NCBI GenBank assembly: GCA_963718995.1
Contig: CAVRAP010000008.1
Coordinates: forward strand, 1,236-65,235
Direction: 5' to 3'
DNA from: an uncultured Actinomycetota bacterium
GTDB taxonomy: Bacteria > Actinomycetota > Acidimicrobiia > Spongiisociales > UBA4744
Length of the DNA stretch: 64,000 nt
Below the pieces are notes generated by a model that worked only from the letters and a program-made list of their open reading frames with translations, ran no database searches and was not told the DNA's origin. Made by a program: the position numbers and the translations under genes. Shown here piece after piece: positions 41,664 through 64,000 of this stretch; position 1 is the first letter of the stretch; each line of letters starts with the position of its first letter.

Positions 41664-41686
41664 AGTTCTCAGTTCTCAGTTCTCAG
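41664..41686. repeat. heptamer tandem array (AGTTCTC)x3, equal to (CTGAGAA)x3 on the tRNA strand, 3' of tRNA-Ser(CGA)
   Basis: Three perfect 7-nt units; part of a ~120-nt element paralogous to the one after tRNA-Ser(GGA). Confidence 0.6.
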
Positions 41687-41788
41687 TCTGATTACTGAAA
41701 GTGAGGGGCTATCAGGCCCCGAGCGACTGACGGCTGAAAGCGGCCCGTCGGAGCGGGCCGCGAACTGAGGTCGGCCGAAGGCCGGCGT

Positions 41789-41882
41789 TGGCGGAGGGAG
41801 AGGGATTCGAACCCTCGAGGGCGGGTAAACGCCCTACGGCATTTCGAGTGCCGCGCACTAGGCCGGACTATGCGATCCCTCC
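41789..41882 (-). tRNA. tRNA-Ser (anticodon CGA), type II, CCA encoded
   Basis: GGAGGGATCGCATAGTCCGGCCTAGTGCGCGGCACTCGAAATGCCG...GGTTCGAATCCCTCTCCCTCCGCCA. Confidence 0.9.
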
Positions 41883-43661: not shown

Positions 43662-43752
43662 GGAGGGATCGCATAGTCTGGCCTAGTGCGCACGCCTGGA
43701 AAGCGTGTAGGGGGTTCACGCTCCCTCGAGGGTTCAAATCCCTCTCCCTCCG
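43662..43752 (+). tRNA. tRNA-Ser (anticodon GGA), type II
   Basis: GGAGGGATCGCATAGTCTGGCCTAGTGCGCACGCCTGGAAAGCGTG...GGTTCAAATCCCTCTCCCTCCG. Confidence 0.9.
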
Positions 43753-43858
43753 CGACGGGTCGGCCGTTGGCCGGCCCGAGTGCGCAGAGCGGCTAAGCCG
43801 ATCTGCTGTCAGTTGTCAGTCCGCTCGGGGCCGAGTGCCCCTCGCTTCAGTCGTCAGA

Positions 43859-43882
43859 CTGATAACTGATAACTGATAACTG
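43859..43882. repeat. heptamer tandem array (CTGATAA)x3 between tRNA-Ser(GGA) and tRNA-Ser(TGA)
   Basis: Three perfect 7-nt units, preceded by hairpins (GGCCG-ttgg-CCGGCC, GGGGCCgagtGCCCC); paralog of the element at 41664. Confidence 0.6.
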
Positions 43883-46520: not shown

Positions 46521-46613
<93 letters not shown>

Positions 46614-46682
46614 GGTGCATGCCGTTGGCCTTGCTGGGCCGAAATCGGGGATACGGGCCTTTGGAAGGCGGTTGCCCTCCTC

Positions 46683-48950: not shown

Positions 48951-48954
<4 letters not shown>
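47197..48954 (-). CDS. DUF885-family protein (putative metallopeptidase-like), co-transcribed downstream of metH
   Basis: 585-aa ORF with the DUF885 core including the AIPGHHLQ motif; 4-nt overlap with the metH stop. Confidence 0.8.
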
Positions 48955-52412
<3,458 letters not shown>

Positions 52413-52530
52413 GCCGCTCCTTCGGATAGATCGAAGAGGAGCGAAAGCGCCACCTCATCGATCAGGCCTTGGCACCGTGATCCCGGGGATCGGTTGCCGC
52501 GGTTTCGTCGGGCCTGTCCCTCCACCGCTC
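52413..52530 (-). promoter_or_regulatory. SAM-I (S-box) riboswitch in the metH leader, with an SD-sequestering expression platform
   Basis: Minus strand: CUCAUCUUGAGCGGUGGAGGGACAGGCCCGACGAAACCGCGGCAACC...ACGGUGCCAAGGCCUGAUCGAUGAGG matches S-box P1-P4 conserved positions; downstream GCUCCU...GGAGCG hairpin occludes the SD before the ATG at 52412. Confidence 0.7.
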
Positions 52531-52640
52531 AAGATGAGTTCGCAGAAGCATACCCTCGGTCGATCGATGGTCAACATGCGGGGTTTTCGTTTACTCCGGG
52601 GTCGACTACCTTTAGCGAGCAAACCCCTCGTGGGGATTGT

Positions 52641-52715
52641 GCGCCCGTAGCTCAATTTGGATAGAGCGTCTGACTACGGATCAGGAGGTTGGGGGTTCGA
52701 GTCCCTCCGGGCGTG
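52641..52715 (+). tRNA. tRNA-Arg (anticodon ACG)
   Basis: GCGCCCGTAGCTCAATTTGGATAGAGCGTCTGACTACGGATCAGGAGGTTGGGGGTTCGAGTCCCTCCGGGCGTG; anticodon loop CTACGGA. Confidence 0.9.
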
Positions 52716-52912
52716 CGCCGTTCGCTGCGCTCACGAACCGAGTTCGGCTTCGCCGAACATCGCCTTGCGTGGGCTTTGCGTTGTCAATCTCCGATGGCGC
52801 TGCGGGGTTTCGGTCATCTCCCGCCGAGTTCCAGGCTGCCTGGCCGGCGACCCGGGCAGGTGGCTGGTCATCTCGCACAGGACGTACCCATCCCCGGTCC
52901 TACACTCCTGTG

Positions 52913-54160
52913 ATGCCCAATTCGTCCGCTGTTCCTGCGCGCTCCTTTGTGGGGTGGCGGATTCTTGCCTTGGCTGTTCTGACCGCCGCGTTGACCGGTC
53001 CGGGTCAGACCATCGGGGTCTCCGTCTTCGTTGACTCCTTCATCCAGGATCTCGACTTGCAGAGATCAGCGGTGGCCGCTGCCTATCTCATCGGAACACT
53101 GGCCGCTGCGCTTGCCTTGCCGACAGTGGGGCGCCGCATCGACTCGCTCGGCGTGCGCCGGGGCATGACGATCATTGGATCTGCCTTTGTATTGGCTCTC
53201 ATCCTGATGTCACGGGTGTCAGGGTTCGTAACCCTGACGGCCGGATTTGTGCTGATCCGCATGCTGGGTCAGGGTTCGTTGTCGTTGGTCTCGACCGTGG
53301 CGGTGACCCTGTGGTTCGAGAGGCACCGCGGTCTAGTACTCGGAGTCCTGGCCACCGGATCAGGCATGCTCATGACCTTGGTCCCGATCGGTTCGAACGC
53401 TCTCATCGACTCCATCGGTTGGCGATCCGCCTGGTTGGTGCTTGCCGGTGTCGTGGCGCTGACCGTGGTTCCCATCGGATGGTTCGGCATGATCGACAGG
53501 CCCTCCGACCGAGGCCTCGCTCCCTACGGCGTGAAATCGTCGGACTCGACCGAAAGGCGCAGCGTTCGCCGGTCGTTCACTCGGCCCGAAGCCGTGCGGA
53601 CTGCCCGATTCTGGATCCTCGTTGCGGGTTCTACGTCGGCTGGCATGCTCATCACCGCCCTGAACTTCCACCAGATCTCGCTGCTCGGGGACGCCGGCCT
53701 CACGACCGCCGAGGCGGCCGCTATGTTTCTCCCCCAGTTCGTCGGTACGGCCATGGCCGGGATCGCCTTCGGGTGGATCAGCGACAGGCTGACCGGTCGC
53801 ACGCTCATTCCGTTAGTCATGGCGGTTCTCGCGATCACCTTGCTCCTGGCGGGGACACTGACCGATGGCCCAATCGTCCTGGTCTATGCCCTCTTGCTCG
53901 GCGCCACGGGCGGAGCCTCCCGGAGTGTTGGGAGCACATTGATGCCCCGCTGGTTCGGCGTCGACCACATCGGGTCGATCACGGGATTGGCAACGCTGGT
54001 CTCGGTGGCCGGCACGGCGGTCGGCCCTGTCGCGTACTCGCTGGCCCGGGACGTGACCGGTACCTACACCACGGTTTCTCTGGTCATGGTTTCTGTGCCG
54101 CTGCTGGTCGCCTTGGCAGCCATCGCCGCCGGGCAAAGGATGACGGCCGGAGCCGGGTAG
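52913..54160 (+). CDS. MFS transporter (12 TM)
   Basis: Twelve predicted helices, MFS motif A-like GRRIDSLGVRRG; ATG at 52913; the longer track ORF overlaps the tRNA and is rejected. Confidence 0.8.
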   Translation: MPNSSAVPARSFVGWRILALAVLTAALTGPGQTIGVSVFVDSFIQDLDLQRSAVAAAYLIGTLAAALALPTVGRRIDSLGVRRGMTIIGSAFVLALILMSRVSGFVTLTAGFVLIRMLGQGSLSLVSTVAVTLWFERHRGLVLGVLATGSGMLMTLVPIGSNALIDSIGWRSAWLVLAGVVALTVVPIGWFGMIDRPSDRGLAPYGVKSSDSTERRSVRRSFTRPEAVRTARFWILVAGSTSAGMLITALNFHQISLLGDAGLTTAEAAAMFLPQFVGTAMAGIAFGWISDRLTGRTLIPLVMAVLAITLLLAGTLTDGPIVLVYALLLGATGGASRSVGSTLMPRWFGVDHIGSITGLATLVSVAGTAVGPVAYSLARDVTGTYTTVSLVMVSVPLLVALAAIAAGQRMTAGAG

Positions 54161-54327
54161 CGAGTCTGTTACCCATGCTGCACCAGTGGTTGGTGGAGCG
54201 GGTGGTCACGTGGGTGGCCCGCTGGTCAGGGGTCGACAGGCCGTTTGAGTGAGGAACTCGGTCGAAACGGAATCCCCCTCGCTGGTGTGCCCGCCGCAGC
54301 CGTCAAGGTCCGTGTACGGATGTTTCC

Positions 54328-55735
54328 TTAGGGTTGCCGGAAAGGGACGGAGTCGGCGATCGGCAAAGAGATCCGGACTGTTGCGCCCCCGCCGGGCGTG
54401 CCGGTGATGGCGACGTCACCCTGGTGCGATGAGACAACCTCGCGGACGATGGCCAGTCCGAGGCCGGCGCCTCCCTTGGTTCGGTCCCGGCCCCGATCCG
54501 GTCGTGCGAATCGGTCGAACACCAACTCGCGTTCGGATTCGGCTATCCCCGGTCCATGGTCGGCGACGGTGATGTGAGCGTGGGCATCGGTGCGATGCGC
54601 CTCCAGCTCAATCGGGGTAGACGCTCCGCCGTAGGCGACGGCGTTGGTGATGAGGTTTTCGATGGCCTGCCGCAACCAGACGGGATCGGCGTCGACCATG
54701 ATTGATCCGTCGGTGTCGACACGGATGTCGCAACCGGTGGAGATACGCATATCCTCGGCGATGTCCTTCACGAGGGCGCCGACATCCAGGCGCTCACGGC
54801 CGGAGCCGATCTCTCGATCGAGGCGGGCGAGCGCCAGCAGATCTTCAATCAACCGCCCGGCGCGATGGCTGGCTTCATTGATACGTTCCATCGCCCGATC
54901 GAGCTTCGGGCCCGGCTCCACCCCGCCTTCGGCGTAGAGCTCGGCGTATCCGGTGATGGCTGCAATCGGCGTCCGCAGCTCGTGGGAGGCATCGTCGGCA
55001 AAGCGGCGGAGGCGCTCGGCCTCGCGCAGGCGGTCCCGGTCGGCGCTCTCGATACGGGCGAGCATGTGGTCGAGTGCCGTCGCCAGTCTTCCGAGCTCGG
55101 TACTTGACTGGACCAGGTCGGCCCTTTTCGTGAGGTCACCCTCGGCGATGGCGCCGGCGGTGTCGATCATGTCGTCGACCGGTCGGAATCCTCTTCTGAG
55201 CAGCAACCACGCGACCGTGATTCCCGCCAGCGCCGCCATCAAGCTGACGGCCAGCGAGATCAAGACCGTTTGGCGGGCCGCCAAGTCCACTGAGTCCAGG
55301 GACCGGGCGAGCAGCTCATATCCATCGGGGCTCTCCCGGACCAAGGCGCGCACCGATCCCGAACCATCGATTGTCGCCCAGCGTGACGAAGGTTCCGGCG
55401 CTTCCACCCAGGTCTGCCTCGGTCAGATTGCTCACGTCCGGCAGGGGTTCAGGCTCGTCGGCGTACCCGGCGGGCTGTTCGAAGACGACCTCGCCATTCT
55501 GGTTGAAGCGAATCAGAGCGAAAGGTTGGAAGGGCTCGTCGCCGGGGGCGGGCACGGCCGGACTGGGACCGGGACCGGGTCGGGTGGAGAAGGCCAGCAG
55601 GTCTTCGTCCACCCGATCGATGAGAACCCGTCTGGTCGTCAGCGAAACGGCGGCGGCGATAGAGGCGCTGACAATGAGGATGATGAGCCCGACCACGATG
55701 GTCAGGCGACGCCGCAGCGTCCACGGCCGGCTCAT
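54328..55735 (-). CDS. two-component sensor histidine kinase (TM sensor, HAMP, HisKA, HATPase); one apparent frameshift between 55316 and 55407
   Basis: N-terminal TM plus sensor in ORF 55316..55756, remainder in ORF 54328..55407 (H-box DDASHELRTPIAAITGYAEL; N, G1, G2 boxes); ATGA overlap with the response regulator stop. Confidence 0.8.
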
Positions 55736-56424
55736 GGACCGGAGGAGCGCAGGCAATAGCCGAACCCGCGCACGGTGTGGATGAGCTTGGGACGGCCTTC
55801 GTCGACCTTCTTGCGGAGCTGTGACACCGCGGTCTCGATCACCGAGTCGCTGTACTCGTACCCCCAGACGGCTTCCAGGATCTGCGCCCGGGACAGGACT
55901 TGTTCGGCGTTCGCCAGGAGGTAGCGGAGCAAACGGTATTCGACCGGCGAAAGGCTGATTTCGTCGTCTCCCCGCGACACGCGATGCTGCGCATCGTTCA
56001 GGACCAGATCGGCACAGATCAGCTCGATCGTTGGCCGCCGGATTCCGCCGCTACGCCGCAGGAGGGCCTCCACCCGCAACCGCAGTTCCTCCAGCCTGAA
56101 CGGCTTCGTGAGGTAGTCATCGCCGCCGGCCTCAAACCCGGCTCGCAGGTCCTCGATGTTGGATCGGGCGGTGAGGAACAGCACCGGCAGGTCCGGGTCG
56201 GTGCTGCGCAAGCTCCTGGCCACCTGAAAGCCGTCGGGTTCTGGCATGTTGACGTCCAGAATCACCAGGTCCGGCCGCTGAGTTCGCACGGTGTTGAGGG
56301 CTGCGAGGCCGTCGGTCGCTACCACGATGTCGTACCCGGCGAAGCTCAGCGCGTCGCTGACCATGTCGAGCAGCATCTGCTCGTCGTCCACAACGAGGAT
56401 CTGTGCCTTGGCAGCATCGGTCAT
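55732..56424 (-). CDS. OmpR/PhoB-family response regulator
   Basis: Receiver domain (ILVVDDE, phospho-acceptor D in LVILDVNMP, K in YLTKPF) plus winged-helix trans_reg_C. Confidence 0.85.
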   Translation of the reverse strand: MTDAAKAQILVVDDEQMLLDMVSDALSFAGYDIVVATDGLAALNTVRTQRPDLVILDVNMPEPDGFQVARSLRSTDPDLPVLFLTARSNIEDLRAGFEAGGDDYLTKPFRLEELRLRVEALLRRSGGIRRPTIELICADLVLNDAQHRVSRGDDEISLSPVEYRLLRYLLANAEQVLSRAQILEAVWGYEYSDSVIETAVSQLRKKVDEGRPKLIHTVRGFGYCLRSSGP

Positions 56425-56499
56425 CGCCACAACTCTAGGGTCGCCGGCTGCGTCCCCTTCATCGTTCGGTAGCGATCGCGATCGGCCAAACATCCCGGC

Positions 56500-57945
56500 C
56501 TACCTCTCGACCACGGTCTCGAGGAACGCCATCCGATCAGCGACCCATTGACGTTTCGCCGCTGCGGCTCTTTCGAGCTCGGTATCGGTCACGAACTGCC
56601 GGTCGGCATTGCTTGTAACCAGTAGCCCCGAGTACTCGTCGATGAGATCGGCGACGCCATCACCCGCAAACAGGATCTCGTAGAGCTCGGCGTAGCGCTG
56701 CTCGTAGGCAGCCAGGAACGAGTCGGTGGCCAGGAACCGATCGACCAGGGGGTTGTTGTAGTCGAAGGTCACGTCACCACCACCGACTCCGGGCTCATTG
56801 GCGATCCCGTCGAGGGGTGGGCCACCTCCTCCCGGCCCTGCCGGCCTCTCGCCGCCCGCACCATCTGCACCGCCGGCGCCGGATCCGGTGAGGTTGCTCC
56901 AATCTGGCAGCAACACGGTGCTGGGTTCGGTCGAGGCCATCCAGAAGCCGCCGAAGCTCTCGTTGAGGTCCCAGGCCAACACCGTGGACCGGTCATCACC
57001 GGCGTCGTACCACAGGTAGTAGTTGTTGCCGTTCCCGGGCATCGAATCGACGCTGACCAGCAGGTTGTTGACGGCGACGTAGTTCACGAACGATTCGATG
57101 TCGAGCCAGTCCTCCAGCTCGGCCTCGAACTCCTCGTCGGTGGAGGTGTCGACGAACTCGAGGAAGTCGATCAACGGCTCCAGATCCGCCTCATTCGTGG
57201 CGGTCTCCTGGGTGAAGGCGCCTTCATAGGCGGTCGGGTCGTGGCCGAGATAGGTGAACGAGTCCCCCGATTGGGCCTTGTAGAGCACTCCGTCATCGTC
57301 GAAGAGCCGTTCGACGTAGCCGTTGTCGAGGAGTTCGACCACCACCCGCAGGGTCTCGGCTTCACCGTTGATGGAGAGCCCGGTGTAGCTCGTCCCGGGG
57401 AACGGCAGTCCGGCGATCTCGAGGACCTCGGCGGTCACCATCTCCTCGAGAATCAGTTCATCTCCCCGGGGTCCCTCGGTGCGGAGGGCCAGTTCCGAGA
57501 ACCCCTGATAGGTGACGCCCGAGGTGTACTCGTCCAGCTTCACCAGAAACGGAATGTCGTCGGGGTCGGCACCGCCCTGCAGCGCCGTGCGGAGCGTCGA
57601 GTTTCCCTTGATGCGCACTCCGACGTCTTCGATGGTGACGCCGTCGATGGTGATGTCGGCGAGGAAATACTCCTTCTCACCGGTCTGTGTGTAGATGGTG
57701 ATGGCGGCCTCTAGATCGGACTGATCGAAGTCGAGCGCGATCGTGTGCACCACGGAGTCGTCGAATAGGTCAACAACATTGGTGTAGTCGACGCCAACGC
57801 TGGTGGATGACCCCGCCTCGTTGTCGCCTCCTGTACCTACATAGGCAATGATGCGCGTCTGGCCGCCCACCAGTGCCAGGGTCACCGCCAGCGCCACCAT
57901 GCCCAGCGGGATCTTCCAATGTCTGCGCCACCTTGTGCTCATCAT
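56500..57945 (-). CDS. CotH-family protein (atypical secreted kinase fold) with signal peptide and Gly-rich low-complexity insert
   Basis: Signal peptide MMSTRWRRHWKIPLGMVALAVTLALVGG; CotH motifs NNYYLWYD and WDLNESFGG. Confidence 0.75.
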   Translation of the reverse strand: MMSTRWRRHWKIPLGMVALAVTLALVGGQTRIIAYVGTGGDNEAGSSTSVGVDYTNVVDLFDDSVVHTIALDFDQSDLEAAITIYTQTGEKEYFLADITIDGVTIEDVGVRIKGNSTLRTALQGGADPDDIPFLVKLDEYTSGVTYQGFSELALRTEGPRGDELILEEMVTAEVLEIAGLPFPGTSYTGLSINGEAETLRVVVELLDNGYVERLFDDDGVLYKAQSGDSFTYLGHDPTAYEGAFTQETATNEADLEPLIDFLEFVDTSTDEEFEAELEDWLDIESFVNYVAVNNLLVSVDSMPGNGNNYYLWYDAGDDRSTVLAWDLNESFGGFWMASTEPSTVLLPDWSNLTGSGAGGADGAGGERPAGPGGGGPPLDGIANEPGVGGGDVTFDYNNPLVDRFLATDSFLAAYEQRYAELYEILFAGDGVADLIDEYSGLLVTSNADRQFVTDTELERAAAAKRQWVADRMAFLETVVER

Positions 57946-57951
57946 GTTCTC

Positions 57952-58635
57952 CTACAGATCAGAGCTGCCGTATCCCGTGAGCAGCGTCACCTTCTGGTTC
58001 TCGTTGAGGCGCTTGATCTCAGCCAGGAAGGCTTGCCGGTTGGTCGATGGTTTCAGGGCGATGGCGTACACCACCTCGGTCAACATCCCGCCGCGGACCG
58101 AATCGACGCTCACCAATTCGGCCCGTTCGGTGTTCCTGGTCAGGAGGTCGTCGAGCACCGTCTCGAAGGGGATGTCATTGGTGACCTGCACCTTCAGCAT
58201 CTGGGAGACGCTGGTGCGGTCATACCAGTTGAACCTGCTCATCAGCATCACAACCATCGAGATGACGGCGGTGGCGATGATGGCCAGCAGGTAGAAGCGG
58301 GTGCCGGCGGCCATGCCGATGGCCATGGCAAAGAACACGAATCCGACATCGCGGGTCTCTTTGATCGCATTGCGGAACCGGATGATGGAAAGCGCACCGA
58401 CCAGCGAAAAGGCCCGGGCGATGTTCGAGCCAACTACCAGCATGATGACACTGACGATCATTCCCATCAGTACCAGGGTCTGCACGTAGCTCTTCGTGTA
58501 CGACGCTCCCTCGTGGGTGCGCATGTACACCCACCCGACGATGGCCGTGAGCACAAAGCTCAGGACCATGCTGATCACTACATCCGCCACCGTGAAGGTG
58601 CTGGTCAGGTCCTCGAACAGAAATAGCTCATCCAT
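57952..58635 (-). CDS. DUF4956-family integral membrane protein
   Basis: Three or four TM helices and the conserved LVGALSIIRFRNAIKETRDVGFVFFAMAIGMAAG segment. Confidence 0.75.
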   Translation of the reverse strand: MDELFLFEDLTSTFTVADVVISMVLSFVLTAIVGWVYMRTHEGASYTKSYVQTLVLMGMIVSVIMLVVGSNIARAFSLVGALSIIRFRNAIKETRDVGFVFFAMAIGMAAGTRFYLLAIIATAVISMVVMLMSRFNWYDRTSVSQMLKVQVTNDIPFETVLDDLLTRNTERAELVSVDSVRGGMLTEVVYAIALKPSTNRQAFLAEIKRLNENQKVTLLTGYGSSDL

Positions 58636-59433
58636 GGGTTCTTACCTTTCGTAGGTTCAGTCGTTGGTCGTCAAAGAAGAAAATCGAGCGGGGGGTCAGT
58701 TCGGCCGCTTCGAGGCTCTGGCAATACTTCGAGATCCGGATCAGCTCGCAGTCGTGGCGGGCAACCAGCTCGGTCAGCCAGAAGGGGATGCGTTCATTGA
58801 CCTTGACCTCCATGACCTCCCACGAAGGGTTGATGGCCGGCAGGCCCGGCCCGGGAGAGGTCAGGTCGAGGTCCCGGGAGCGGTACCGGATGTCTTTGTC
58901 GAAGGTGACCCGGAGGCCTGGATCGGGCTCCCGGCCCACGTACGCCTCTCTCTCGTAGAGCGTGATCACCGCCCGCCGTAAGTCGTAGTACAGGGTCATG
59001 GAGGCAATCTCGTCATAGGTGGCCGTGTCCCTCGGGTCATGTGGGGGGACGATCCCGGAACCACACAGCGCCAGCGCCTCGGCGAGTGGCGCGACGATGC
59101 GCCGTTTCTGGGTCACCCGATTGACCCGCTGCTTGATCTCGGCGAACACCATGGTCGATGGCTCCGGAGCCGGGTCGTAGGAGCGGATTCTGAGCTTCCG
59201 ACGGAACTTGATCCCGTCGAGTTTTTCCCAATAGAACCGGTGGTCTTCGGTGTCGTAGTACAACGATGCCAACGGATACGAACCGGTCGGTCCTGCGTGC
59301 GGGTCGAGGTCGACGTAGTGCACCAAGTCATCCCGAAAGGCGTTCGCCTGGTCCGACGTCAACAGATATTTGAGCTCGAACCGGTTGAACGACCGCACCG
59401 CGCTCGTCGGGTTGGGGTTGATGCTCAGGTGCG
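58590..59433. repeat. copy A of a >=844-bp near-identical direct repeat (partner at 63157..64000)
   Basis: Covers the first 15 codons of the DUF4956 gene plus most of the VTC gene; one nucleotide difference seen (58682 A versus 63249 G, synonymous). Confidence 0.85.
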
Positions 59434-59476
59434 GTTGGGGTTTCTGGCGCGTCGTCATGCCACCACTGTCCACCAC
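58628..59476 (-). CDS. VTC-domain (CYTH-like triphosphate tunnel, polyphosphate-polymerase-domain) protein
   Basis: Hallmark FNRFELKYLL start, YYDT, FAEIKQR, EVKVNE motifs of PF09359; start could be ATG 59476, ATG 59458 or GTG 59431. Confidence 0.8.
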   Translation of the reverse strand: MVDSGGMTTRQKPQPHLSINPNPTSAVRSFNRFELKYLLTSDQANAFRDDLVHYVDLDPHAGPTGSYPLASLYYDTEDHRFYWEKLDGIKFRRKLRIRSYDPAPEPSTMVFAEIKQRVNRVTQKRRIVAPLAEALALCGSGIVPPHDPRDTATYDEIASMTLYYDLRRAVITLYEREAYVGREPDPGLRVTFDKDIRYRSRDLDLTSPGPGLPAINPSWEVMEVKVNERIPFWLTELVARHDCELIRISKYCQSLEAAELTPRSIFFFDDQRLNLRKVRTHG

Positions 59477-59611
59477 GCAACTGGTGGCCCCCCAAGCGCA
59501 AGCTCAGCGTTCCCTCACGATCGTGAATCGAGCGCGGTATCCAAAAGGAACGCCACGGTCGGTTCAACCTGGGAAGCGCCCCCGCCGGGAGCCAAGTTGG
59601 GAGCCATTCGC

Positions 59612-59700
59612 AGTGGACCTGTGTGGACGGCTGTGGACGCCGGTGAAATCGAAAGCCTTTCATTTCGGGCTGTGTGGACGTCTGTGGACGTCTGTGGACG
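59612..59700. promoter_or_regulatory. two clusters of three 10-bp-phased direct repeats (TGTGGACG; CGTCCACAGA on the operon strand) upstream of the VTC operon
   Basis: Units at 59612 (variant AGTGGACC), 59622, 59632 and at 59673, 59683, 59693; phasing typical of OmpR/PhoB-family tandem half-sites; also resembles the DnaA box (CGTCCACA versus TTGTCCACA). Confidence 0.5.
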
Positions 59701-59715
59701 CTGCTTGGAGATCTG

Positions 59716-59755
59716 CGGATCAGGAGGTTGGGGGTTCGAGTCCCTCCGGGCGTGC
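59716..59755 (+). repeat. 40-bp exact copy of the tRNA-Arg 3' half (anticodon loop to acceptor stem); attR-like
   Basis: cggatcaggaggttgggggttcgagtccctccgggcgtgc identical to 52677-52716. Confidence 0.8.
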
Positions 59756-60059: not shown

Positions 60060-60557
60060 GTGGTCGAGGCGCTCAACCGGGAGATCAACGTTTCGAGAGG
60101 GTCGGAACTCGATGGTTTCGACCGGCTGTATAGAGAACAGGCATCTCGCTTGTGGCGGGCGCTTACCGCGTACACGGGCAGTCGCGACGTGGCACAGGAT
60201 GCGGTCGCTGAGGCTTTCGCGCAAGCGATTGCGCGCGGCGGAGAGATTCATTCACCGCTGCAGTGGGTGTGGAAGTCCGCATATCGAATCGCAGCTGGTG
60301 AGCTGAAGCGACGTGGAGCATTCACCGAGTTGGTGACCGATCATCCGACGACGGCAGACGAACCAGCGTCGGAGGTTCGAGCGGCGTTGATGAAGCTGTC
60401 GCCGATGCAGCGCTCGGCGGTGGTGTTGCACTACTACGCGGGTTATCCGGCTGCCGAGATCGCCCGAATCACCGGCTCGACCGCCGCTGCAGTGTGGGTG
60501 CACTTGAGTCGGGGACGGCGCCACATGGCCCAGTTGCTGGAGGTAGACGATGACTGA
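60060..60557 (+). CDS. ECF sigma factor
   Basis: Region 2 (DVAQDAVAEAFAQA) and region 4 (LSPMQRSAVVLHYYAGYPAAEIARITGSTAAAVWVHLSRGRRHM); GTG start with SD GGAGGA. Confidence 0.8.
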   Translation: MVEALNREINVSRGSELDGFDRLYREQASRLWRALTAYTGSRDVAQDAVAEAFAQAIARGGEIHSPLQWVWKSAYRIAAGELKRRGAFTELVTDHPTTADEPASEVRAALMKLSPMQRSAVVLHYYAGYPAAEIARITGSTAAAVWVHLSRGRRHMAQLLEVDDD

Positions 60558-62061
60558 CTTGCGGGAACGCCTCAGCGAATTGGATCGGCTCGATGCACCT
60601 GATATGCGGGTGAGCATCGATCGGCGTGTCGGCGAACTCCAATCTGCCACCCGTGTGTCACTTGTCCATTCAGCAAGTCCGGTGTGGCGGGGTCCGCTGA
60701 TCGCATTGGCGACGGCTGTTGCGGCCATCCTGGTGGTTGCCGCGTCGATGCTGGTGTTGCGGACGGAACAGCCGGACATGGTCGACGAACCGGCTCCCAC
60801 CTCTCCGACAACGATCGAGGCGCCCGAGACGAGCTCTCCGTCGGCGAATCAGGCTCCTCCGAGATCCCCGGCTTATTACGGTGCAGCCCTCATCGAGTGG
60901 ATGTATGGCGTATGTGACGTTGCGGTTGCGCCGGATGGTCTGGTGTACGCGGCGGCCCCGGCGGGGATCGGCTCAATGGACGCAGCGGGCGAGTGGACCC
61001 TGATCGACATTGCCGGACTCCCGCAGGGCAGACCTCTGGACAACGGGTGGCCGGCTCCGAGGATCGGAAACGTCGCCATCGGCCCCGACGGCGCTCTGTG
61101 GGCGGGCGGCACCTCCTGGTCCACCGTCGACGATGAGGAGTTCGGGGGAGTTATCGCCGAGCCGTTGGGCTCCATGGCGCCGGCGGCCCGGTTCAAGACG
61201 TGGGCGGCACGCTACGACTGCGGTCGGGAACCATGCTCGTGGACGGTGTTCACTACGGACGTGGCTCCCGGAACGGACTTCGACATCGGCGATATGGCGG
61301 TGTCGAGCGACGGAACCGTCTACCTCACCACCGGTGACAACCTGTTGCTCATTCTCGACGGGACCGAATGGGAATCCCACACCGTCCCGGGGCTCCCGAC
61401 CGGCTTCGGTAGCGGCGTGTCGCCGTGGTCGAGTTCGCTGGCGATCGATGCCGATGGTGTCGTGTGGGTGGGCACCAACGCCAATGACGATCCGGGGTGG
61501 GGGATCCCCAGCAGCGACTTTCGCGAAGGGCGCGGTCTGTTCGCTTTCGACGGTACCGATTTCACTCGATACACCACCGAGGACGGGCTTCCCAGCGATC
61601 GCGCCTTCCAGGTGTCGGTCGATGCAGATGGAACTATCTGGGTCGCCACCGACGGCCCTGATCACGTGAATCGGATCGTCGGGGAATATGGGTTTGTATG
61701 GTACGAGGGCCCTAACACGAGCCTGCCGCCGGAAGCAGCAGCCGGGATCGCCGGCTTCGACGGCACCACCTGGACCCCTTACACGGCCGCCGACGGACTG
61801 CTGTCGAACAACGCCGTACTGGCTGCAAGCCCTGACGGGACCATGTGGGCTCTTCACTCTGCGACAACCCCCTACGGGTACTCCCACTTCGACGGCACCG
61901 CATGGACCGCCTATCCGGCCGAACTCCCGGCTGGTGCGTTCCGGACCTTCCGGGCAGAAGTTGCTCCCGACGGGACCCTGTGGACGATCTCAGATCAGGG
62001 TGTGGGTAGCTTCGACGGCATCACCCCAACGATCCACACATCACTGTTTCCCCGCCCGTGA
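60550..62061 (+). CDS. anti-sigma-like membrane protein fused to a two-component-regulator-propeller (Reg_prop) beta-propeller domain
   Basis: 8-nt overlap with the ECF sigma; cytoplasmic N-terminus, one TM (LIALATAVAAILVVAASMLVL), Pro/Ser linker, then ~8 repeats of the DG(T/A)(L/V)W...FDG..WT.Y propeller type. Confidence 0.7.
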   Translation: MTDLRERLSELDRLDAPDMRVSIDRRVGELQSATRVSLVHSASPVWRGPLIALATAVAAILVVAASMLVLRTEQPDMVDEPAPTSPTTIEAPETSSPSANQAPPRSPAYYGAALIEWMYGVCDVAVAPDGLVYAAAPAGIGSMDAAGEWTLIDIAGLPQGRPLDNGWPAPRIGNVAIGPDGALWAGGTSWSTVDDEEFGGVIAEPLGSMAPAARFKTWAARYDCGREPCSWTVFTTDVAPGTDFDIGDMAVSSDGTVYLTTGDNLLLILDGTEWESHTVPGLPTGFGSGVSPWSSSLAIDADGVVWVGTNANDDPGWGIPSSDFREGRGLFAFDGTDFTRYTTEDGLPSDRAFQVSVDADGTIWVATDGPDHVNRIVGEYGFVWYEGPNTSLPPEAAAGIAGFDGTTWTPYTAADGLLSNNAVLAASPDGTMWALHSATTPYGYSHFDGTAWTAYPAELPAGAFRTFRAEVAPDGTLWTISDQGVGSFDGITPTIHTSLFPRP

Positions 62062-62086: not shown

Positions 62087-62668
62087 GTGCCGGGCCAACT
62101 CCGCACCCCGACCAGGAGATGGATGTCATGGAGGCACTTTGTGAGACATCGTGCGGTTCTTCTACTGCCTGTTCTTACCCTGATTCTTGGAGCGTGTGGC
62201 GCCAGTTCCATCACAGGAGATCGGACCTTCGTCTACGGGACTGGCAACTGCGACTGCAACTTCGCTTCGGCGACCGCCGAGGGTGATACACAGATCCTCA
62301 ATGGAACGTGTGTCTGCATAACTCACCTATCCGACCCGAGAGTCAATGGGTACGAAGAAATCCCTATGACCCTGACCATGTTTCCGGACCAGACCCCGGA
62401 AGTGCACTGGTTCGAGTACAACGACGCAACCCTCACCAGCGAAGAAGCCACATGGGGCAAAGGCGAGGGCTTCGGCAGTGAGTTCTTCGACAAGAGTGGC
62501 GGCTTGCTGACTAGTGGATACGCCAGATACCTCGGTGAAGGTACGTTTGACGGTCTCGTGTACGAGTACTTCTACTCGCAGGCTCCCGCCTTCGCTTCGG
62601 AGGACGACCCCCACGAGGGCTATCGGATCTCTGGATGGATCATGCAGGTCCCGGACGAAAAAAACTGA
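62087..62668 (+). CDS. secreted lipoprotein, Cys-rich N-terminal region (function unknown)
   Basis: Signal peptide with lipobox LILGAC; CDC/C.C motifs; start GTG 62087 or ATG 62123. Confidence 0.55.
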   Translation: MPGQLRTPTRRWMSWRHFVRHRAVLLLPVLTLILGACGASSITGDRTFVYGTGNCDCNFASATAEGDTQILNGTCVCITHLSDPRVNGYEEIPMTLTMFPDQTPEVHWFEYNDATLTSEEATWGKGEGFGSEFFDKSGGLLTSGYARYLGEGTFDGLVYEYFYSQAPAFASEDDPHEGYRISGWIMQVPDEKN

Positions 62669-62804
62669 ACCGCCCCATATCACGGGAATCTCGCACCAAA
62701 AAGAGCATGTCGCCGAGTGTCCCCGAGCGGCACGTCGGCGTGTGCTCGTCTGGGGCCTCATCCGCTCCCGGACATTCGTCACAGCATTACCGAGATGTGG
62801 AATC

Positions 62805-63134
62805 ATGCGCAACGTGATGCAACCTACGCTTCGCGCTACCACGGAGTCCGGGGCCGTCTGGGACGATCCTTCGGAGGATCTGCTCTTCGAACTGCTCTCC
62901 GATGTGGAACAAGGAAGAGAGTTGTTTCTCGTTATTCACCGACTCGGCGCTACCGACATGTACATCCAGGTCTTATTGCAAGACGAATGGACTTACCTCG
63001 TCGAGCACCGTGATGGGGGACCGTCATCGCATTTCGCTGCGACGTCCCACGACAAGCGGACCGTGCACGAGGTCCTCACGACATGGGCCTACCAGCTTCC
63101 CGGTGGACGAGCCTGCTCGGTTGGACGTCCGTGA
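62805..63134 (+). CDS. hypothetical small cytoplasmic protein (109 aa)
   Basis: ORF from an internal ATG; no recognisable domain. Confidence 0.45.
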   Translation: MRNVMQPTLRATTESGAVWDDPSEDLLFELLSDVEQGRELFLVIHRLGATDMYIQVLLQDEWTYLVEHRDGGPSSHFAATSHDKRTVHEVLTTWAYQLPGGRACSVGRP

Positions 63135-63156: not shown

Positions 63157-63204
63157 CCGTGAAGGTGCTGGTCAGGTCCTCGAACAGAAATAGCTCATCC
63201 ATGG
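63157..63204 (-). pseudogene. 15-codon remnant of a DUF4956 gene N-terminus (MDELFLFEDLTSTFT-A-stop) at the boundary of the duplicated segment
   Basis: Identical to codons 1-15 of the gene at 58635, then diverges into a stop. Confidence 0.5.
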
Positions 63205-64000
63205 GTTCTTACCTTTCGTAGGTTCAGTCGTTGGTCGTCAAAGAAGAAGATCGAGCGGGGGGTCAGTTCGGCCGCTTCGAGGCTCTGGCAATACTTCGAG
63301 ATCCGGATCAGCTCGCAGTCGTGGCGGGCAACCAGCTCGGTCAGCCAGAAGGGGATGCGTTCATTGACCTTGACCTCCATGACCTCCCACGAAGGGTTGA
63401 TGGCCGGCAGGCCCGGCCCGGGAGAGGTCAGGTCGAGGTCCCGGGAGCGGTACCGGATGTCTTTGTCGAAGGTGACCCGGAGGCCTGGATCGGGCTCCCG
63501 GCCCACGTACGCCTCTCTCTCGTAGAGCGTGATCACCGCCCGCCGTAAGTCGTAGTACAGGGTCATGGAGGCAATCTCGTCATAGGTGGCCGTGTCCCTC
63601 GGGTCATGTGGGGGGACGATCCCGGAACCACACAGCGCCAGCGCCTCGGCGAGTGGCGCGACGATGCGCCGTTTCTGGGTCACCCGATTGACCCGCTGCT
63701 TGATCTCGGCGAACACCATGGTCGATGGCTCCGGAGCCGGGTCGTAGGAGCGGATTCTGAGCTTCCGACGGAACTTGATCCCGTCGAGTTTTTCCCAATA
63801 GAACCGGTGGTCTTCGGTGTCGTAGTACAACGATGCCAACGGATACGAACCGGTCGGTCCTGCGTGCGGGTCGAGGTCGACGTAGTGCACCAAGTCATCC
63901 CGAAAGGCGTTCGCCTGGTCCGACGTCAACAGATATTTGAGCTCGAACCGGTTGAACGACCGCACCGCGCTCGTCGGGTTGGGGTTGATGCTCAGGTGCG
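63195..64000 (-). CDS. second copy of the VTC-domain protein gene (5' end may run off the window)
   Basis: Protein identical to copy A over 256 aa; GTG at 63965 corresponds to internal Val of copy A; the upstream ATG of copy A would lie at ~64010. Confidence 0.75.
   Translation of the reverse strand, partial: HLSINPNPTSAVRSFNRFELKYLLTSDQANAFRDDLVHYVDLDPHAGPTGSYPLASLYYDTEDHRFYWEKLDGIKFRRKLRIRSYDPAPEPSTMVFAEIKQRVNRVTQKRRIVAPLAEALALCGSGIVPPHDPRDTATYDEIASMTLYYDLRRAVITLYEREAYVGREPDPGLRVTFDKDIRYRSRDLDLTSPGPGLPAINPSWEVMEVKVNERIPFWLTELVARHDCELIRISKYCQSLEAAELTPRSIFFFDDQRLNLRKVRTHG

What the first reader, a model, noticed from the sequence alone, without database searches (positions are those of the whole stretch)
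56500..59476. Conserved but uncharacterised VTC(CYTH)-DUF4956-CotH operon: candidate split polyphosphate-polymerase-like envelope system
Three overlapping genes encode a cytoplasmic VTC-domain protein (RFELKYLL...YYDT...EIK, the triphosphate-tunnel fold of the eukaryotic vacuolar polyP polymerase catalytic subunit), a DUF4956 polytopic membrane protein, and a signal-peptide-bearing CotH-family atypical kinase. A sensor kinase and an OmpR-type regulator sit in the same transcriptional direction. In eukaryotes the VTC tunnel domain is fused to a membrane channel that translocates nascent polyP. Here the tunnel enzyme and a membrane protein are separate adjacent genes, followed by a secreted kinase-fold protein. 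That reads like a bacterial split analogue that makes and exports a phosphoanhydride polymer for an extracytoplasmic CotH enzyme to use. To my knowledge this triad has no experimentally defined function.
Basis: inference. Interest (0 to 1): 0.7.

Follow-up and report, generated by a model that had tools for sequence, protein, structure and literature searches.

The report
Bacterial VTC–DUF4956–CotH envelope operon
This is a real five-gene operon that pairs a yeast-type polyphosphate-polymerase enzyme with a conserved membrane protein and a kinase tethered outside the cell; the gene set is common in bacteria and already noted in print, but nobody knows how it works.

Summary
On the minus strand, 59476→54328, five tightly packed genes encode:
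- a stand-alone VTC tunnel enzyme (PF09359, E 5e-46);
- a DUF4956 membrane protein (PF16316, E 4e-23);
- a membrane-anchored CotH kinase (PF08757, E 6e-40);
- an OmpR-type regulator;
- a sensor kinase, frameshifted in this assembly.

The VTC protein keeps the Vtc4 catalytic residues that could be aligned. Its model matches the Vtc4 tunnel (Foldseek E 4e-13) better than generic CYTH enzymes.

In 57 of the 80 best related loci (Actinomycetota, Chloroflexota, Patescibacteria) the same three genes occur in the same order. The only recurrent neighbour is a two-component system (23 of 57). No pel genes were seen.

DUF4956 is not related to the eukaryotic VTC channel. It looks like MgtC: four membrane helices plus an ACT-like domain, with an invariant basic loop.

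The trio was already described next to Gram-positive pel operons. Deleting the DUF4956 and CotH homologues in Streptococcus intermedius changes Pel-dependent aggregation; no biochemistry exists.

The [quoted passage not shown] model fits the data but is untested. I give it about 0.35.

Locally, the block is bracketed by a repeated tRNA-Arg 3′ end, and the VTC gene is duplicated 4.6 kb away.

The parts
58628..59476 (-). Stand-alone VTC-type triphosphate-tunnel enzyme (282 aa from GTG 59476; the database twin P0001 starts at ATG 59458, 276 aa). It has no SPX domain and no membrane domain.
   Evidence: PF09359 E 4.9e-46. AF2 model pLDDT 87. Best Foldseek PDB hits are the Vtc4 tunnel 3g3r/3g3q, E 4e-13, TM 0.65-0.67. 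Catalytic residues are aligned and invariant.
57952..58635 (-). DUF4956 membrane protein (227 aa): four or five hydrophobic helices, an invariant basic segment (residues 69-102: GSNIARAF.L.G.LSIIRFRNA.KETRDVGF.FF, dots marking columns that vary), and a C-terminal beta-alpha-beta-beta-alpha-beta ACT-like domain. Its start overlaps the VTC stop by 8 nt.
   Evidence: PF16316 E 4.1e-23, with a weak MgtC PF02308 hit at E 7e-4, below cut-off. Invariant columns. AF2 secondary structure, pLDDT only 59. ACT-like fold hits including the MgtC C-terminal domain 7qa5.
56500..57945 (-). CotH-family kinase (481 aa) with an N-terminal signal anchor plus the conserved RIIAY motif and a Gly/Pro-rich insert. The catalytic domain is predicted to lie outside the membrane.
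   Evidence: PF08757 E 5.6e-40. Matches B. cereus CotH 5jd9, E 9e-4. K113, K223 and D300 are invariant, and N308, D326 and N328 nearly invariant (at least 90%), in 20 homologues.
55732..56493 (-). OmpR/PhoB-family response regulator, 6 nt downstream of CotH.
   Evidence: Response_reg E 2e-30 plus Trans_reg_C E 5.5e-24. No NCBIfam equivalog cut-off is reached.
54328..55735 (-). Sensor histidine kinase (two membrane helices, HAMP, HisKA, HATPase). It is frameshifted near 55375-55380 in this assembly. Its ATG overlaps the regulator's stop codon (ATGA).
   Evidence: Pfam domains on the 54328-55407 ORF. tblastn of the L001 orthologue aligns in two frames.
59622..59700 (-). Five phased direct repeats of CGTCCACA (three in tandem at 10-nt spacing, then two more 41 nt downstream), 146-242 nt upstream of the VTC start. 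Candidate operator for the OmpR-type regulator, or arm-type sites of a former integrative element.
   Evidence: Five of the nine matches in the whole window fall here; 2.85 are expected window-wide. TRF finds period 10, 2.8 copies, 100% match. Not found upstream of VTC in relatives.
59713..59755 (+). Copy of the last 43 nt of tRNA-Arg(ACG), 42 of 43 identical. It forms the right-hand boundary of the 7-kb block.
   Evidence: self-BLAST E 1e-13.
52641..52716 (+). Intact tRNA-Arg(ACG). Its 3' end is the left-hand copy of the 43-nt direct repeat.
52914..54160 (+). MFS transporter inside the repeat-bracketed block, convergent with the kinase. Its link to the system is uncertain.
   Evidence: MFS_1 E 5.5e-33. 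The start is inferred from the sequence. MFS is not a recurrent neighbour elsewhere: 3 of 100 upstream genes.
63157..64000 (-). Second copy of the VTC gene (one synonymous difference in 844 nt) plus only the first 15 codons of DUF4956. It runs off the window end.

Best explanation
The locus is one transcription unit, VTC, DUF4956, CotH, response regulator, sensor kinase. It belongs to a widespread, vertically stable and horizontally mobile bacterial module.

Shown:
- The first protein is a cytoplasmic Vtc4-like tunnel enzyme with the polymerase residue set.
- The second is a strongly conserved polytopic membrane protein with a basic loop and an ACT-like cytoplasmic domain.
- The third is a CotH kinase whose catalytic domain is tethered outside the membrane.

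Inferred mechanism:
1. The VTC enzyme docks on the cytoplasmic basic loop and ACT domain of DUF4956 and polymerises phosphate from NTP.
2. DUF4956, probably as an oligomer and together with the conserved CotH N-terminal helix, passes the phosphoanhydride chain to the outer face of the membrane.
3. There the CotH domain uses it as a phosphoryl donor, or anchors it, to modify an envelope or matrix substrate (protein or glycan). No ATP is available at that location.
4. The adjacent two-component system switches the operon on, perhaps through the phased 10-nt repeats upstream.

Confidence by step: component identities and their functional linkage about 0.9; VTC makes polyP about 0.55; the full export-and-use relay about 0.3-0.35.
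For: Family assignments.

VTC enzyme:
- The model matches the Vtc4 tunnel at E 4e-13 and TM 0.67, against E 1e-7 to 1e-5 for generic CYTH enzymes.
- The profile alignment to Vtc4 (8i6v_E numbering) gives K36=K200, R96=R264, R98=R266, K115=K281, Y174=Y359, R176=R361, R189=R373 and R32=R196.
- All of these are invariant in 20 homologues. They are the residues shown to be essential in yeast (10.1101/2023.01.27.525886).
- The invariant E223-x-K225 and S249-K250 motifs fit E426-x-K428 and S457-K458.

Conservation and linkage:
- 57 of the 80 best loci carry VTC, DUF4956 and CotH in the same order and strand, in Acidimicrobiia, other Actinomycetes, Chloroflexota and Patescibacteria.
- The gene spacing fits translational coupling.
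- DUF4956 is 62-67% identical across phyla, with an invariant Arg/Lys-rich segment.

Extracytoplasmic partner:
- The CotH catalytic residues are conserved. The N-terminus is a signal anchor, or a lipobox in distant homologues.
- In at least five Chloroflexi loci CotH is replaced by a mini-ORF that retains just the CotH anchor and GDQxIIAY motif, followed by a Cthe_2159 lipoprotein. This suggests the anchor is a separable subunit and the outside partner is exchangeable.

Regulation and genetics:
- An OmpR-type two-component pair lies within 2.5 kb in 23 of 57 trios, and it is the only recurrent neighbour.
- Deleting the DUF4956 or CotH homologue alters an extracellular-matrix phenotype in S. 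intermedius (PMC12345266).
Against: - There is no biochemical evidence for polyP synthesis by any prokaryotic VTC-domain protein. None was found in 9 literature searches.
- DUF4956 has no detectable similarity to the Vtc1/DUF202 channel. Its nearest relatives (MgtC family) are regulators, not known channels.
- The DUF4956 model is low-confidence (pLDDT 59), so no pore can be seen.
- In S. intermedius the VTC deletion had no clear phenotype while the DUF4956 and CotH deletions did, and those two changed Pel levels in opposite directions (PMC12345266). That is hard to fit to a simple linear relay.
- The mapping of E426, S457 and K458 rests on motifs only (searches failed to align them).
- CotH is only known to use ATP.
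Confidence: 0.35

Rival explanations
1. Co-regulated but not a relay. VTC plus DUF4956 form a membrane-associated unit for phosphate or energy homeostasis. The polyP stays in the cytoplasm, and DUF4956 acts like MgtC as an ACT-domain sensor or regulator. CotH is an independent surface kinase or adhesin-like protein expressed under the same envelope or phosphate signal.
For: - DUF4956 gives a weak MgtC match and has a transmembrane-plus-ACT architecture. MgtC proteins regulate ATP synthase and PhoR (as cited in PMC12345266).
- The S. intermedius authors proposed cytoplasmic polyP (10.1101/2024.04.20.589940).
- The VTC deletion is phenotypically uncoupled from the DUF4956 and CotH deletions (PMC12345266).
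- 13 loci with room for a third gene have VTC-DUF4956 without CotH.
- An orphan VTC copy exists in this window.
Against: - The fixed order and tight spacing of all three genes in 57 of 80 loci across phyla.
- Retention of the CotH membrane anchor as a mini-ORF when the kinase domain is swapped points to a physical link between the membrane part and the outside partner.
- An outside kinase would still lack a phosphoryl donor.
Confidence: 0.3
2. The module is an envelope-glycan modification accessory. CotH (or Cthe_2159 in its place) acts on an exopolysaccharide or wall glycan. The tunnel enzyme works as a phosphohydrolase or nucleotide-processing TTM rather than a polymerase, and DUF4956 couples it to the membrane step.
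For: - The trio adjoins pel operons in Streptococci, Clostridia and Bifidobacteria (10.1101/768473).
- Deletions alter Pel level (PMC12345266).
- C. perfringens NELoc-2 combines VTC x2 and CotH with a glycosyltransferase and a deacetylase (PMC11677781).
- Cthe_2159, a carbohydrate-binding beta-helix, replaces CotH in Chloroflexi loci. PMT_2/YkcB glycosyltransferases flank a few loci.
- Most TTM/CYTH enzymes are hydrolases (PMC8233210 abstract).
Against: - No pel-type or other glycan-synthesis family recurs near the 46 trios whose flanks were scanned with Pfam, nor in this window's flanks.
- The protein keeps the residues aligned to the Vtc4 polymerase set, and motifs consistent with the K458 equivalent that distinguishes active Vtc4 from inactive Vtc2/3.
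- Its fold is closer to Vtc4 than to the hydrolase TTMs.
Confidence: 0.2
3. The adjacency is incidental, or an annotation or assembly artefact with no functional unit.
For: - The contig shows possible assembly problems: a frameshifted kinase and a 99.9% identical 844-nt repeat 4.6 kb away.
- The window's proteins were not retrievable by exact look-up.
Against: - The Pfam E-values are 1e-23 to 1e-46.
- The same order is found in 57 independent loci from several phyla.
- The closest relative, L001, is syntenic for all five genes.
Confidence: 0.02

Closest known systems
Eukaryotic VTC complex (Vtc4/Vtc3 or Vtc2/Vtc1), the vacuolar polyphosphate polymerase and translocase
   Same: The catalytic tunnel domain is the same. 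There is a Pfam VTC match, and the best structural match is the Vtc4 tunnel. K200, R264, R266, K281, Y359 and R361 are conserved. The enzyme is genetically tied to a membrane protein.
   Different: There is no SPX domain and no fused three-helix DUF202 membrane domain, and no Vtc1-like gene. The partner membrane protein belongs to an unrelated family (DUF4956, MgtC-like, with an ACT domain). The system has a third, extracytoplasmic kinase component and is controlled by a two-component system rather than by inositol pyrophosphate and SPX.
cotH / poly-phosphate polymerase / DUF4956 (± DUF4832) accessory genes of Gram-positive pel operons (Whitfield et al., 10.1101/768473; S. intermedius SIR_1592-1594, PMC12345266)
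   Same: The same three families lie next to each other. CotH is predicted to be secreted or surface-located, VTC cytoplasmic, and DUF4956 a four-helix membrane protein with an ACT domain.
   Different: Here, and in the 46 related loci whose flanks were scanned (of 57 carrying the trio), there is no adjoining pel cluster. The recurrent companion is an OmpR-type two-component system. The gene order is VTC-DUF4956-CotH. The CotH protein lacks the FN3 domain. No DUF4832 hydrolase is present. This contradicts the published statement that the trio is not found outside pel loci.
Bacillus spore-coat kinase CotH
   Same: The same Pfam family. The metal-binding Asp (Bs D251 = Bc D247) aligns to D326, and a family-invariant Asp (D300) lies at the catalytic position after allowing for a 3-residue insertion.
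   Different: Bacillus CotH is made in the mother cell, has access to ATP, is encoded next to its substrates cotG and cotB (PMC7821199), and has no membrane anchor. This protein is membrane-anchored outside the cell of a non-sporulating actinobacterium and is linked to VTC and DUF4956.
MgtC/SapB/YhiD family membrane proteins
   Same: An N-terminal helical membrane domain followed by a C-terminal ACT-like domain. There is a weak PF02308 match here and in many homologues. The model's C-terminal domain hits the MgtC C-terminal domain 7qa5.
   Different: The score is below the Pfam cut-off (20.4 against 31.4 bits). The invariant basic segment is distinct. The obligate pairing with a VTC enzyme is not known for MgtC.

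Membership tests
VTC-type polyphosphate polymerase (Vtc4 catalytic domain, PF09359) | Sequence match to the VTC domain model above the curated cut-off | tested here: met
   157.6 bits against a cut-off of 23, covering positions 1-233 of the 235-position profile.
VTC-type polyphosphate polymerase (Vtc4 catalytic domain, PF09359) | Closed beta-barrel tunnel fold closest to Vtc4 rather than to other TTM/CYTH enzymes | tested here: met
   The AF2 model has pLDDT 87. The top 13 Foldseek hits are all VTC tunnel domains (E 4e-13 to 3e-10, TM 0.59-0.67). Generic CYTH enzymes score E 1e-7 or worse, TM 0.47 or lower.
VTC-type polyphosphate polymerase (Vtc4 catalytic domain, PF09359) | Triphosphate-binding residues K200, R264, R266, K281, Y359 and R361 | tested here: met
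   The profile alignment to 8i6v_E/3g3q_A gives K36, R96, R98, K115, Y174 and R176. All are invariant in 20 homologues. The residue list comes from 10.1101/2023.01.27.525886.
VTC-type polyphosphate polymerase (Vtc4 catalytic domain, PF09359) | Metal ligand E426, and S457/K458 (K458 distinguishes active Vtc4 from inactive Vtc2/3) | tested here: inconclusive
   The invariant E223-x-K225 and S249-K250 motifs are in the right order and spacing. The C-terminal third could not be aligned to Vtc4 by sequence.
VTC-type polyphosphate polymerase (Vtc4 catalytic domain, PF09359) | Fusion to an SPX domain and a three-helix membrane domain, and assembly with Vtc1 | tested here: not met
   The protein is 282 aa with only the VTC domain and no hydrophobic segment. 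No DUF202-like gene is present in the operon.
VTC-type polyphosphate polymerase (Vtc4 catalytic domain, PF09359) | ATP-dependent polyP synthesis | not testable with these tools
   This needs an enzyme assay.
DUF4956 (PF16316) | Sequence match above the cut-off; a stand-alone membrane protein of about 225 aa | tested here: met
   82.4 bits against 30.6. 3,841 clusters (50% identity) match at E of 1e-10 or better; most full-length hits among the best 150 are about 215-250 aa and none looks like a domain fusion.
MgtC family (PF02308) | Sequence match above the Pfam gathering score | tested here: not met
   20.4 bits against a cut-off of 31.4. Precomputed PF02308 co-hits appear on many homologues, so this is a distant relative at best.
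Vtc1/DUF202-type polyP channel | Three-helix subunit homologous to the Vtc1 membrane domain | tested here: not met
   No Pfam hit. The Foldseek PDB search of the low-confidence model returns no VTC membrane chain, only ACT-like domains.
CotH kinase (PF08757) | Family match plus the catalytic and metal-binding Asp pair (B. subtilis D228 and D251) | tested here: met
   138.2 bits against 23.8. D326 aligns to Bc D247 (= Bs D251). D300 is invariant in 20 homologues; D326 is nearly invariant (at least 90%). D300 corresponds to D228 only after allowing a 3-residue insertion, so that half is an inference.
Gram-positive pel accessory cluster | Contiguity with pelDEADAFG | tested here: not met
   The flanks are tRNA-Arg, metH, an MFS gene, and sigma/anti-sigma genes. 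No pel-type families were found around the 46 related trios scanned. Window 1-31000 was not scanned.
tRNA-integrated genomic island | Direct repeat of the tRNA 3' end bracketing the block | tested here: met
   52674-52716 and 59713-59755 are 42 of 43 identical.
tRNA-integrated genomic island | An integrase or recombinase gene inside or next to the block | tested here: not met
   Every ORF of the block has another assignment. ORFs to the right gave no Pfam hit or are sigma/anti-sigma genes.

The most novel reading that the evidence does not exclude
Bacteria possess a VTC-type polyphosphate polymerase that works with an unrelated membrane conduit (DUF4956) to deliver phosphoanhydride chains to the outer face of the membrane. 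There a tethered CotH kinase, or an exchangeable partner such as a Cthe_2159 lipoprotein, uses them. This would be a dedicated way of powering phosphorylation outside the cell, where no ATP exists. It would also be a third route of prokaryotic polyP synthesis besides PPK1 and PPK2.
Probability: 0.22. Interest if true: 0.9.

Novelty: new variant of a known kind. Interest (0 to 1): 0.58.

Why it matters
Current reviews and recent primary papers still list VTC4 as a eukaryotic enzyme and give bacteria only PPK1 and PPK2 (PMC13318637). A catalytically intact VTC tunnel enzyme is locked into a conserved operon in thousands of bacterial lineages, including genome-reduced Patescibacteria, Corynebacterium, Bifidobacterium and pathogenic Streptococci and Clostridia. 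This would add a new polyP route.

It would also offer a concrete, testable answer to how an extracytoplasmic kinase obtains a phosphoryl donor.

The data here correct the published view that the trio exists only beside pel loci. They identify a two-component system as its usual companion. They also point to two specific interaction elements to test: the invariant basic loop of DUF4956 and the separable CotH anchor with its RIIAY motif.

Tried and rejected
- Exact-sequence look-ups of the window's own VTC, DUF4956 and CotH proteins, to see the contig beyond base 64000, found nothing. The extent of the duplication is therefore unresolved.
- Single-sequence phmmer of the VTC protein against PDB missed Vtc4; only the profile found it.
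- A profile of the C-terminal third and a Vtc2 fragment used as bait both failed to align E426, S457 and K458.
- The DUF4956 structure prediction was poor (pLDDT 59). Its fold search is informative only for the ACT-like domain.
- NCBIfam has no model for any of the three proteins, and the regulator and kinase reach no equivalog cut-off. A PhoR/PhoB identity therefore cannot be claimed.
- PADLOC gave no hits, so a phage-defence reading was dropped.
- Rfam found no known RNA motif upstream of the operon.
- The consensus promoter and terminator scan was at background level.
- The CGTCCACA repeats are not conserved upstream of VTC in twelve relatives, so they cannot be called a family-wide operator.
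- A nucleotide BLAST against "L001.fa" hit a multi-record file and is usable only for the L001 synteny lines.


Full report
**What is there.** On the minus strand the ORF list and Pfam give five consecutive genes:

| Gene | Coordinates | Evidence |
|---|---|---|
| VTC-domain protein | 59476→58628, 282 aa | PF09359, E 4.9e-46 |
| DUF4956 membrane protein | 58635→57952, 227 aa | PF16316, E 4.1e-23; sub-threshold MgtC hit, E 7e-4 |
| CotH-family protein | 57945→56500, 481 aa | PF08757, E 5.6e-40 |
| OmpR-type response regulator | 56493→55732 | Response_reg plus Trans_reg_C |
| Sensor kinase | 55735→54328 | HAMP, HisKA, HATPase |

The junctions are an 8-nt overlap, a 6-nt gap, a 6-nt gap and a 4-nt ATGA overlap. 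This is the spacing of a single, translationally coupled operon.

Two details need correcting. Only the first gene pair actually overlaps. The kinase is broken by a frameshift near 55375-55380: the L001 orthologue aligns to residues 1-117 in one frame and 119-460 in another. Whether this is a real pseudogene or an assembly indel cannot be decided here.

**The tunnel enzyme.** A 20-sequence alignment used as a profile finds yeast Vtc4 and Vtc2 in the PDB. In natural Vtc4 numbering (chain 8i6v_E) the alignment pairs:
- K36 with K200
- R96 with R264
- R98 with R266
- K115 with K281
- Y174 with Y359
- R176 with R361
- R189 with R373
- R32 with R196

All of these are invariant among the bacterial homologues. 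K200, R264, R266, K281, Y359 and R361 are among the residues whose mutation abolishes polyP synthesis in yeast (10.1101/2023.01.27.525886).

The remaining three residues (E426, S457 and K458, the last being the residue that separates active Vtc4 from inactive Vtc2/3) lie in the C-terminal third. I could not align that part by sequence. The invariant E223-V-K225 and S249-K250 motifs sit in the expected order, so this point is likely but not shown.

An AlphaFold model from the alignment is confident (pLDDT 87). Its 13 best PDB matches are all VTC tunnel domains (E 4e-13 to 3e-10, TM up to 0.67). Generic CYTH enzymes come far behind, at E 1e-7 or worse.

The protein has no SPX domain and no membrane segment. 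It is a bare Vtc4-like catalytic domain.

**The membrane protein.**
- DUF4956 is unusually conserved. It is 62-67% identical between this Acidimicrobiia sequence and Chloroflexi or Methanofastidiosum-bin homologues. VTC is about 50-55% identical and CotH 35-45% in the same comparisons.
- The invariant core is GSNIARAF.L.G.LSIIRFRNA.KETRDVGF.FF (dots mark columns that vary), with five basic residues.
- By the positive-inside rule this basic segment most likely faces the cytoplasm (inference).
- The structure prediction is poor (pLDDT 59). It gives four to five helices followed by a beta-alpha-beta-beta-alpha-beta domain.
- Its fold hits are weak and all to ACT-like domains, including the MgtC C-terminal domain 7qa5.
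- Nothing links DUF4956 to the three-helix Vtc1-type channel subunits.
- A full-library profile search finds 3,841 clusters at E of 1e-10 or better, and most full-length hits among the best 150 are stand-alone proteins of about 215-250 aa.

**The kinase.**
- Against B. cereus CotH (5jd9), D326 aligns with the metal-binding Asp, which is B. subtilis D251 (residue roles from PMC7821199).
- In a 20-member alignment K113, K223 and D300 are invariant, and N308, W325-D326 and N328 are nearly invariant, present in at least 90% of sequences.
- D300 corresponds to the catalytic D228 if a three-residue insertion is allowed.
- The N-terminus is a basic stretch, a hydrophobic helix and a conserved RIIAY motif. 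More distant homologues carry lipoboxes instead.
- The catalytic domain is therefore predicted to be outside the membrane and tethered to it.

**Conservation.** One scan of species-representative genomes with the VTC profile found 575 relatives, of which the best 80 loci were returned. I built HMMs from window-seeded hits and searched the loci with them. The 80 loci divide as follows:

| Arrangement | Loci |
|---|---|
| VTC→DUF4956→CotH, same strand and order | 57 |
| VTC→DUF4956, room for a third gene but no CotH | 13 |
| Contig ends too early | 8 |
| No DUF4956 | 2 |

The hosts are Acidimicrobiia, Corynebacterium, Promicromonospora, Nonomuraea/Streptosporangium, Micromonospora, Bifidobacteriaceae, many Chloroflexota, several Patescibacteria lineages and one Methanofastidiosum bin. 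The 80 loci are the most similar ones, so these fractions describe this subfamily, not all VTC-domain genes.

Pfam censuses of the genes at positions ±1 and ±2 to ±4 around 46 trios show only one recurrent neighbour type: an OmpR-type regulator with a HAMP/HisKA kinase. By distance, 23 of 57 trios have such a pair within 2.5 kb. The closest relative, L001, is syntenic for all five genes. No pel-type or other polysaccharide-synthesis family recurs.

**An informative variant.** In at least six Chloroflexi loci the gene after DUF4956 encodes a lipoprotein with a Cthe_2159 beta-helix domain (E about 1e-100) instead of CotH. In five Chloroflexi loci lacking CotH (L013, L015, L032, L038, L046) a mini-ORF of about 70-90 codons follows DUF4956. 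In the four with enough sequence downstream, it lies between DUF4956 and that lipoprotein gene. The mini-ORF encodes just the CotH N-terminal anchor and its GDQxI(I/V)AY motif.

I read this as evidence that the anchor is a separable membrane subunit of the system and that the extracytoplasmic partner can be swapped. The alternative is that these are decaying CotH remnants. That fits less well with intact ORFs of similar length in five different lineages.

**What the literature says.**
- The trio is not new as an observation. Whitfield et al. listed cotH, a poly-phosphate polymerase gene, DUF4956 and DUF4832 as accessory genes contiguous with Gram-positive pel operons (10.1101/768473).
- The S. 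intermedius study describes SIR_1594 (CotH-FN3), SIR_1593 (VTC-like, catalytic residues present) and SIR_1592 (four helices plus ACT, MgtC-like).
- That study reports that deleting 1592 or 1594 lowers aggregation by more than 50% in artificial sputum medium. Pel levels change in opposite directions in the two mutants. The 1593 deletion has no clear effect (PMC12345266).
- The authors state that the arrangement is not found outside pel loci. My scan contradicts that.
- C. perfringens NELoc-2 also combines VTC genes, CotH, and sigma/anti-sigma, glycosyltransferase and deacetylase genes (PMC11677781).
- I found no biochemical characterisation of any prokaryotic VTC-domain protein or of DUF4956.
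- A 2026 paper still lists VTC4 as eukaryotic (PMC13318637).

**Mechanism.** The best-supported statement is that these three proteins work as one membrane-centred unit. The evidence is the fixed order, the coupling, the cross-phylum conservation and the retained anchor.

Beyond that I commit to the relay model. A Vtc4-like enzyme makes a phosphoanhydride chain at the cytoplasmic face. DUF4956 receives it on its basic loop and passes it outward. The tethered CotH domain uses or fixes it on an envelope substrate. A dedicated two-component system provides control.

Its main attraction is that it explains how a kinase outside the membrane could obtain a phosphoryl donor. Its main weaknesses are these:
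- DUF4956 resembles a regulator family rather than a channel.
- There is no polyP biochemistry for any prokaryotic member.
- The VTC deletion in S. intermedius has no clear phenotype.

I put the full relay at about 0.3-0.35, the co-regulated-but-separate model at 0.3, and a glycan-modification model with a hydrolase at 0.2.

**Local context.**
- The block from 52717 to 59712 (MFS, kinase, regulator, CotH, DUF4956, VTC) is bracketed by the intact tRNA-Arg(ACG) and a 42/43-identical copy of its last 43 nt. This is the signature of an integrated element, but no integrase is present.
- Five phased CGTCCACA repeats lie just inside the right boundary, 146-242 nt upstream of VTC.
- The VTC gene plus the first 15 codons of DUF4956 is repeated at 63157-64000 with one synonymous change, and the repeat runs off the window.
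- An ECF-type sigma factor and a beta-propeller protein lie between the two copies.
- The rest of the surveyed window is ordinary actinobacterial core genome: fhaA, rodA/ftsW, pknB, serS, and metH with a SAM riboswitch.

**Verdict.** The finding is real and correctly described, and its two self-declared refutation tests were passed. It is a further member of a gene trio already noted in print. It occurs here in a pel-independent, two-component-linked form that appears to be the common one in Actinomycetota, Chloroflexota and Patescibacteria. The proposed mechanism remains a hypothesis, but it is now sharpened and directly testable.

Noticed in passing
window 52674-52716 and 59713-59755: The last 43 nt of tRNA-Arg(ACG) are repeated (42 of 43 identical) 7 kb downstream. 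The two copies bracket exactly the MFS, kinase, regulator, CotH, DUF4956 and VTC block. This looks like the attL/attR pair of an integrated island, but no integrase gene is present.
   Followed up: partly
window 63157-64000 (compare 58590-59433): A second copy of the VTC gene, 843 of 844 nt identical with one synonymous change. It carries only the first 15 codons of DUF4956 before a stop, and the repeat runs off the window end. It is either a recent segmental duplication that left an orphan VTC gene, or an assembly artefact.
   Followed up: partly
window 55375-55380: The sensor kinase of the operon is frameshifted relative to its L001 orthologue. It is either a pseudogene or an indel error.
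   Followed up: partly
window 59622-59700: Five CGTCCACA direct repeats phased at 10 nt (three in tandem, then two more 41 nt downstream) lie between the tRNA fragment and the VTC start. They account for five of the nine matches in the whole window. They could be the regulator's operator or integrase arm sites. They are absent upstream of VTC in twelve relatives.
   Followed up: partly
L013:11491-11709, L015:11517-11753, L046:11443-11670, L032:11564-11842, L038:7025-7240: In Chloroflexi loci without CotH, an ORF of about 70-90 codons encodes only the CotH N-terminal anchor and GDQxIIAY motif. In L013, L015, L046 and L032 a Cthe_2159 (PF14262) lipoprotein gene follows it.
   Followed up: partly
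window 60060-62061: An ECF-type sigma factor (Sigma70_r4_2) and an overlapping 503-aa protein with Reg_prop beta-propeller repeats lie between the two VTC copies. C. perfringens NELoc-2 likewise pairs sigma/anti-sigma genes with VTC and CotH genes (PMC11677781).
   Followed up: no
window 52452-52540 (minus strand): A SAM riboswitch (RF00162, 77 bits) lies in the leader of the 1153-aa methionine synthase gene (48951-52412). This is ordinary.
   Followed up: no
L008 (Methanofastidiosum MAG); L004-L006, L021, L022, L036, L040 (Patescibacteria): The trio also occurs in an archaeal bin and in several genome-reduced CPR lineages. DUF4956 in these is more than 60% identical to the actinobacterial protein. 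This suggests horizontal spread, or binning contamination in the archaeal case.
   Followed up: no
window 41664-41882 / 43662-43881 and 43688-43772 / 46545-46630: Four tRNA-Ser genes with different anticodons lie within 5 kb, and some of them share 79-87% similarity.
   Followed up: no
window 62150-63134: Two ORFs with no Pfam match sit between the propeller protein and VTC copy 2. One is a probable lipoprotein (LILGAC lipobox). The other, after trimming, encodes a small protein of about 100 aa.
   Followed up: no
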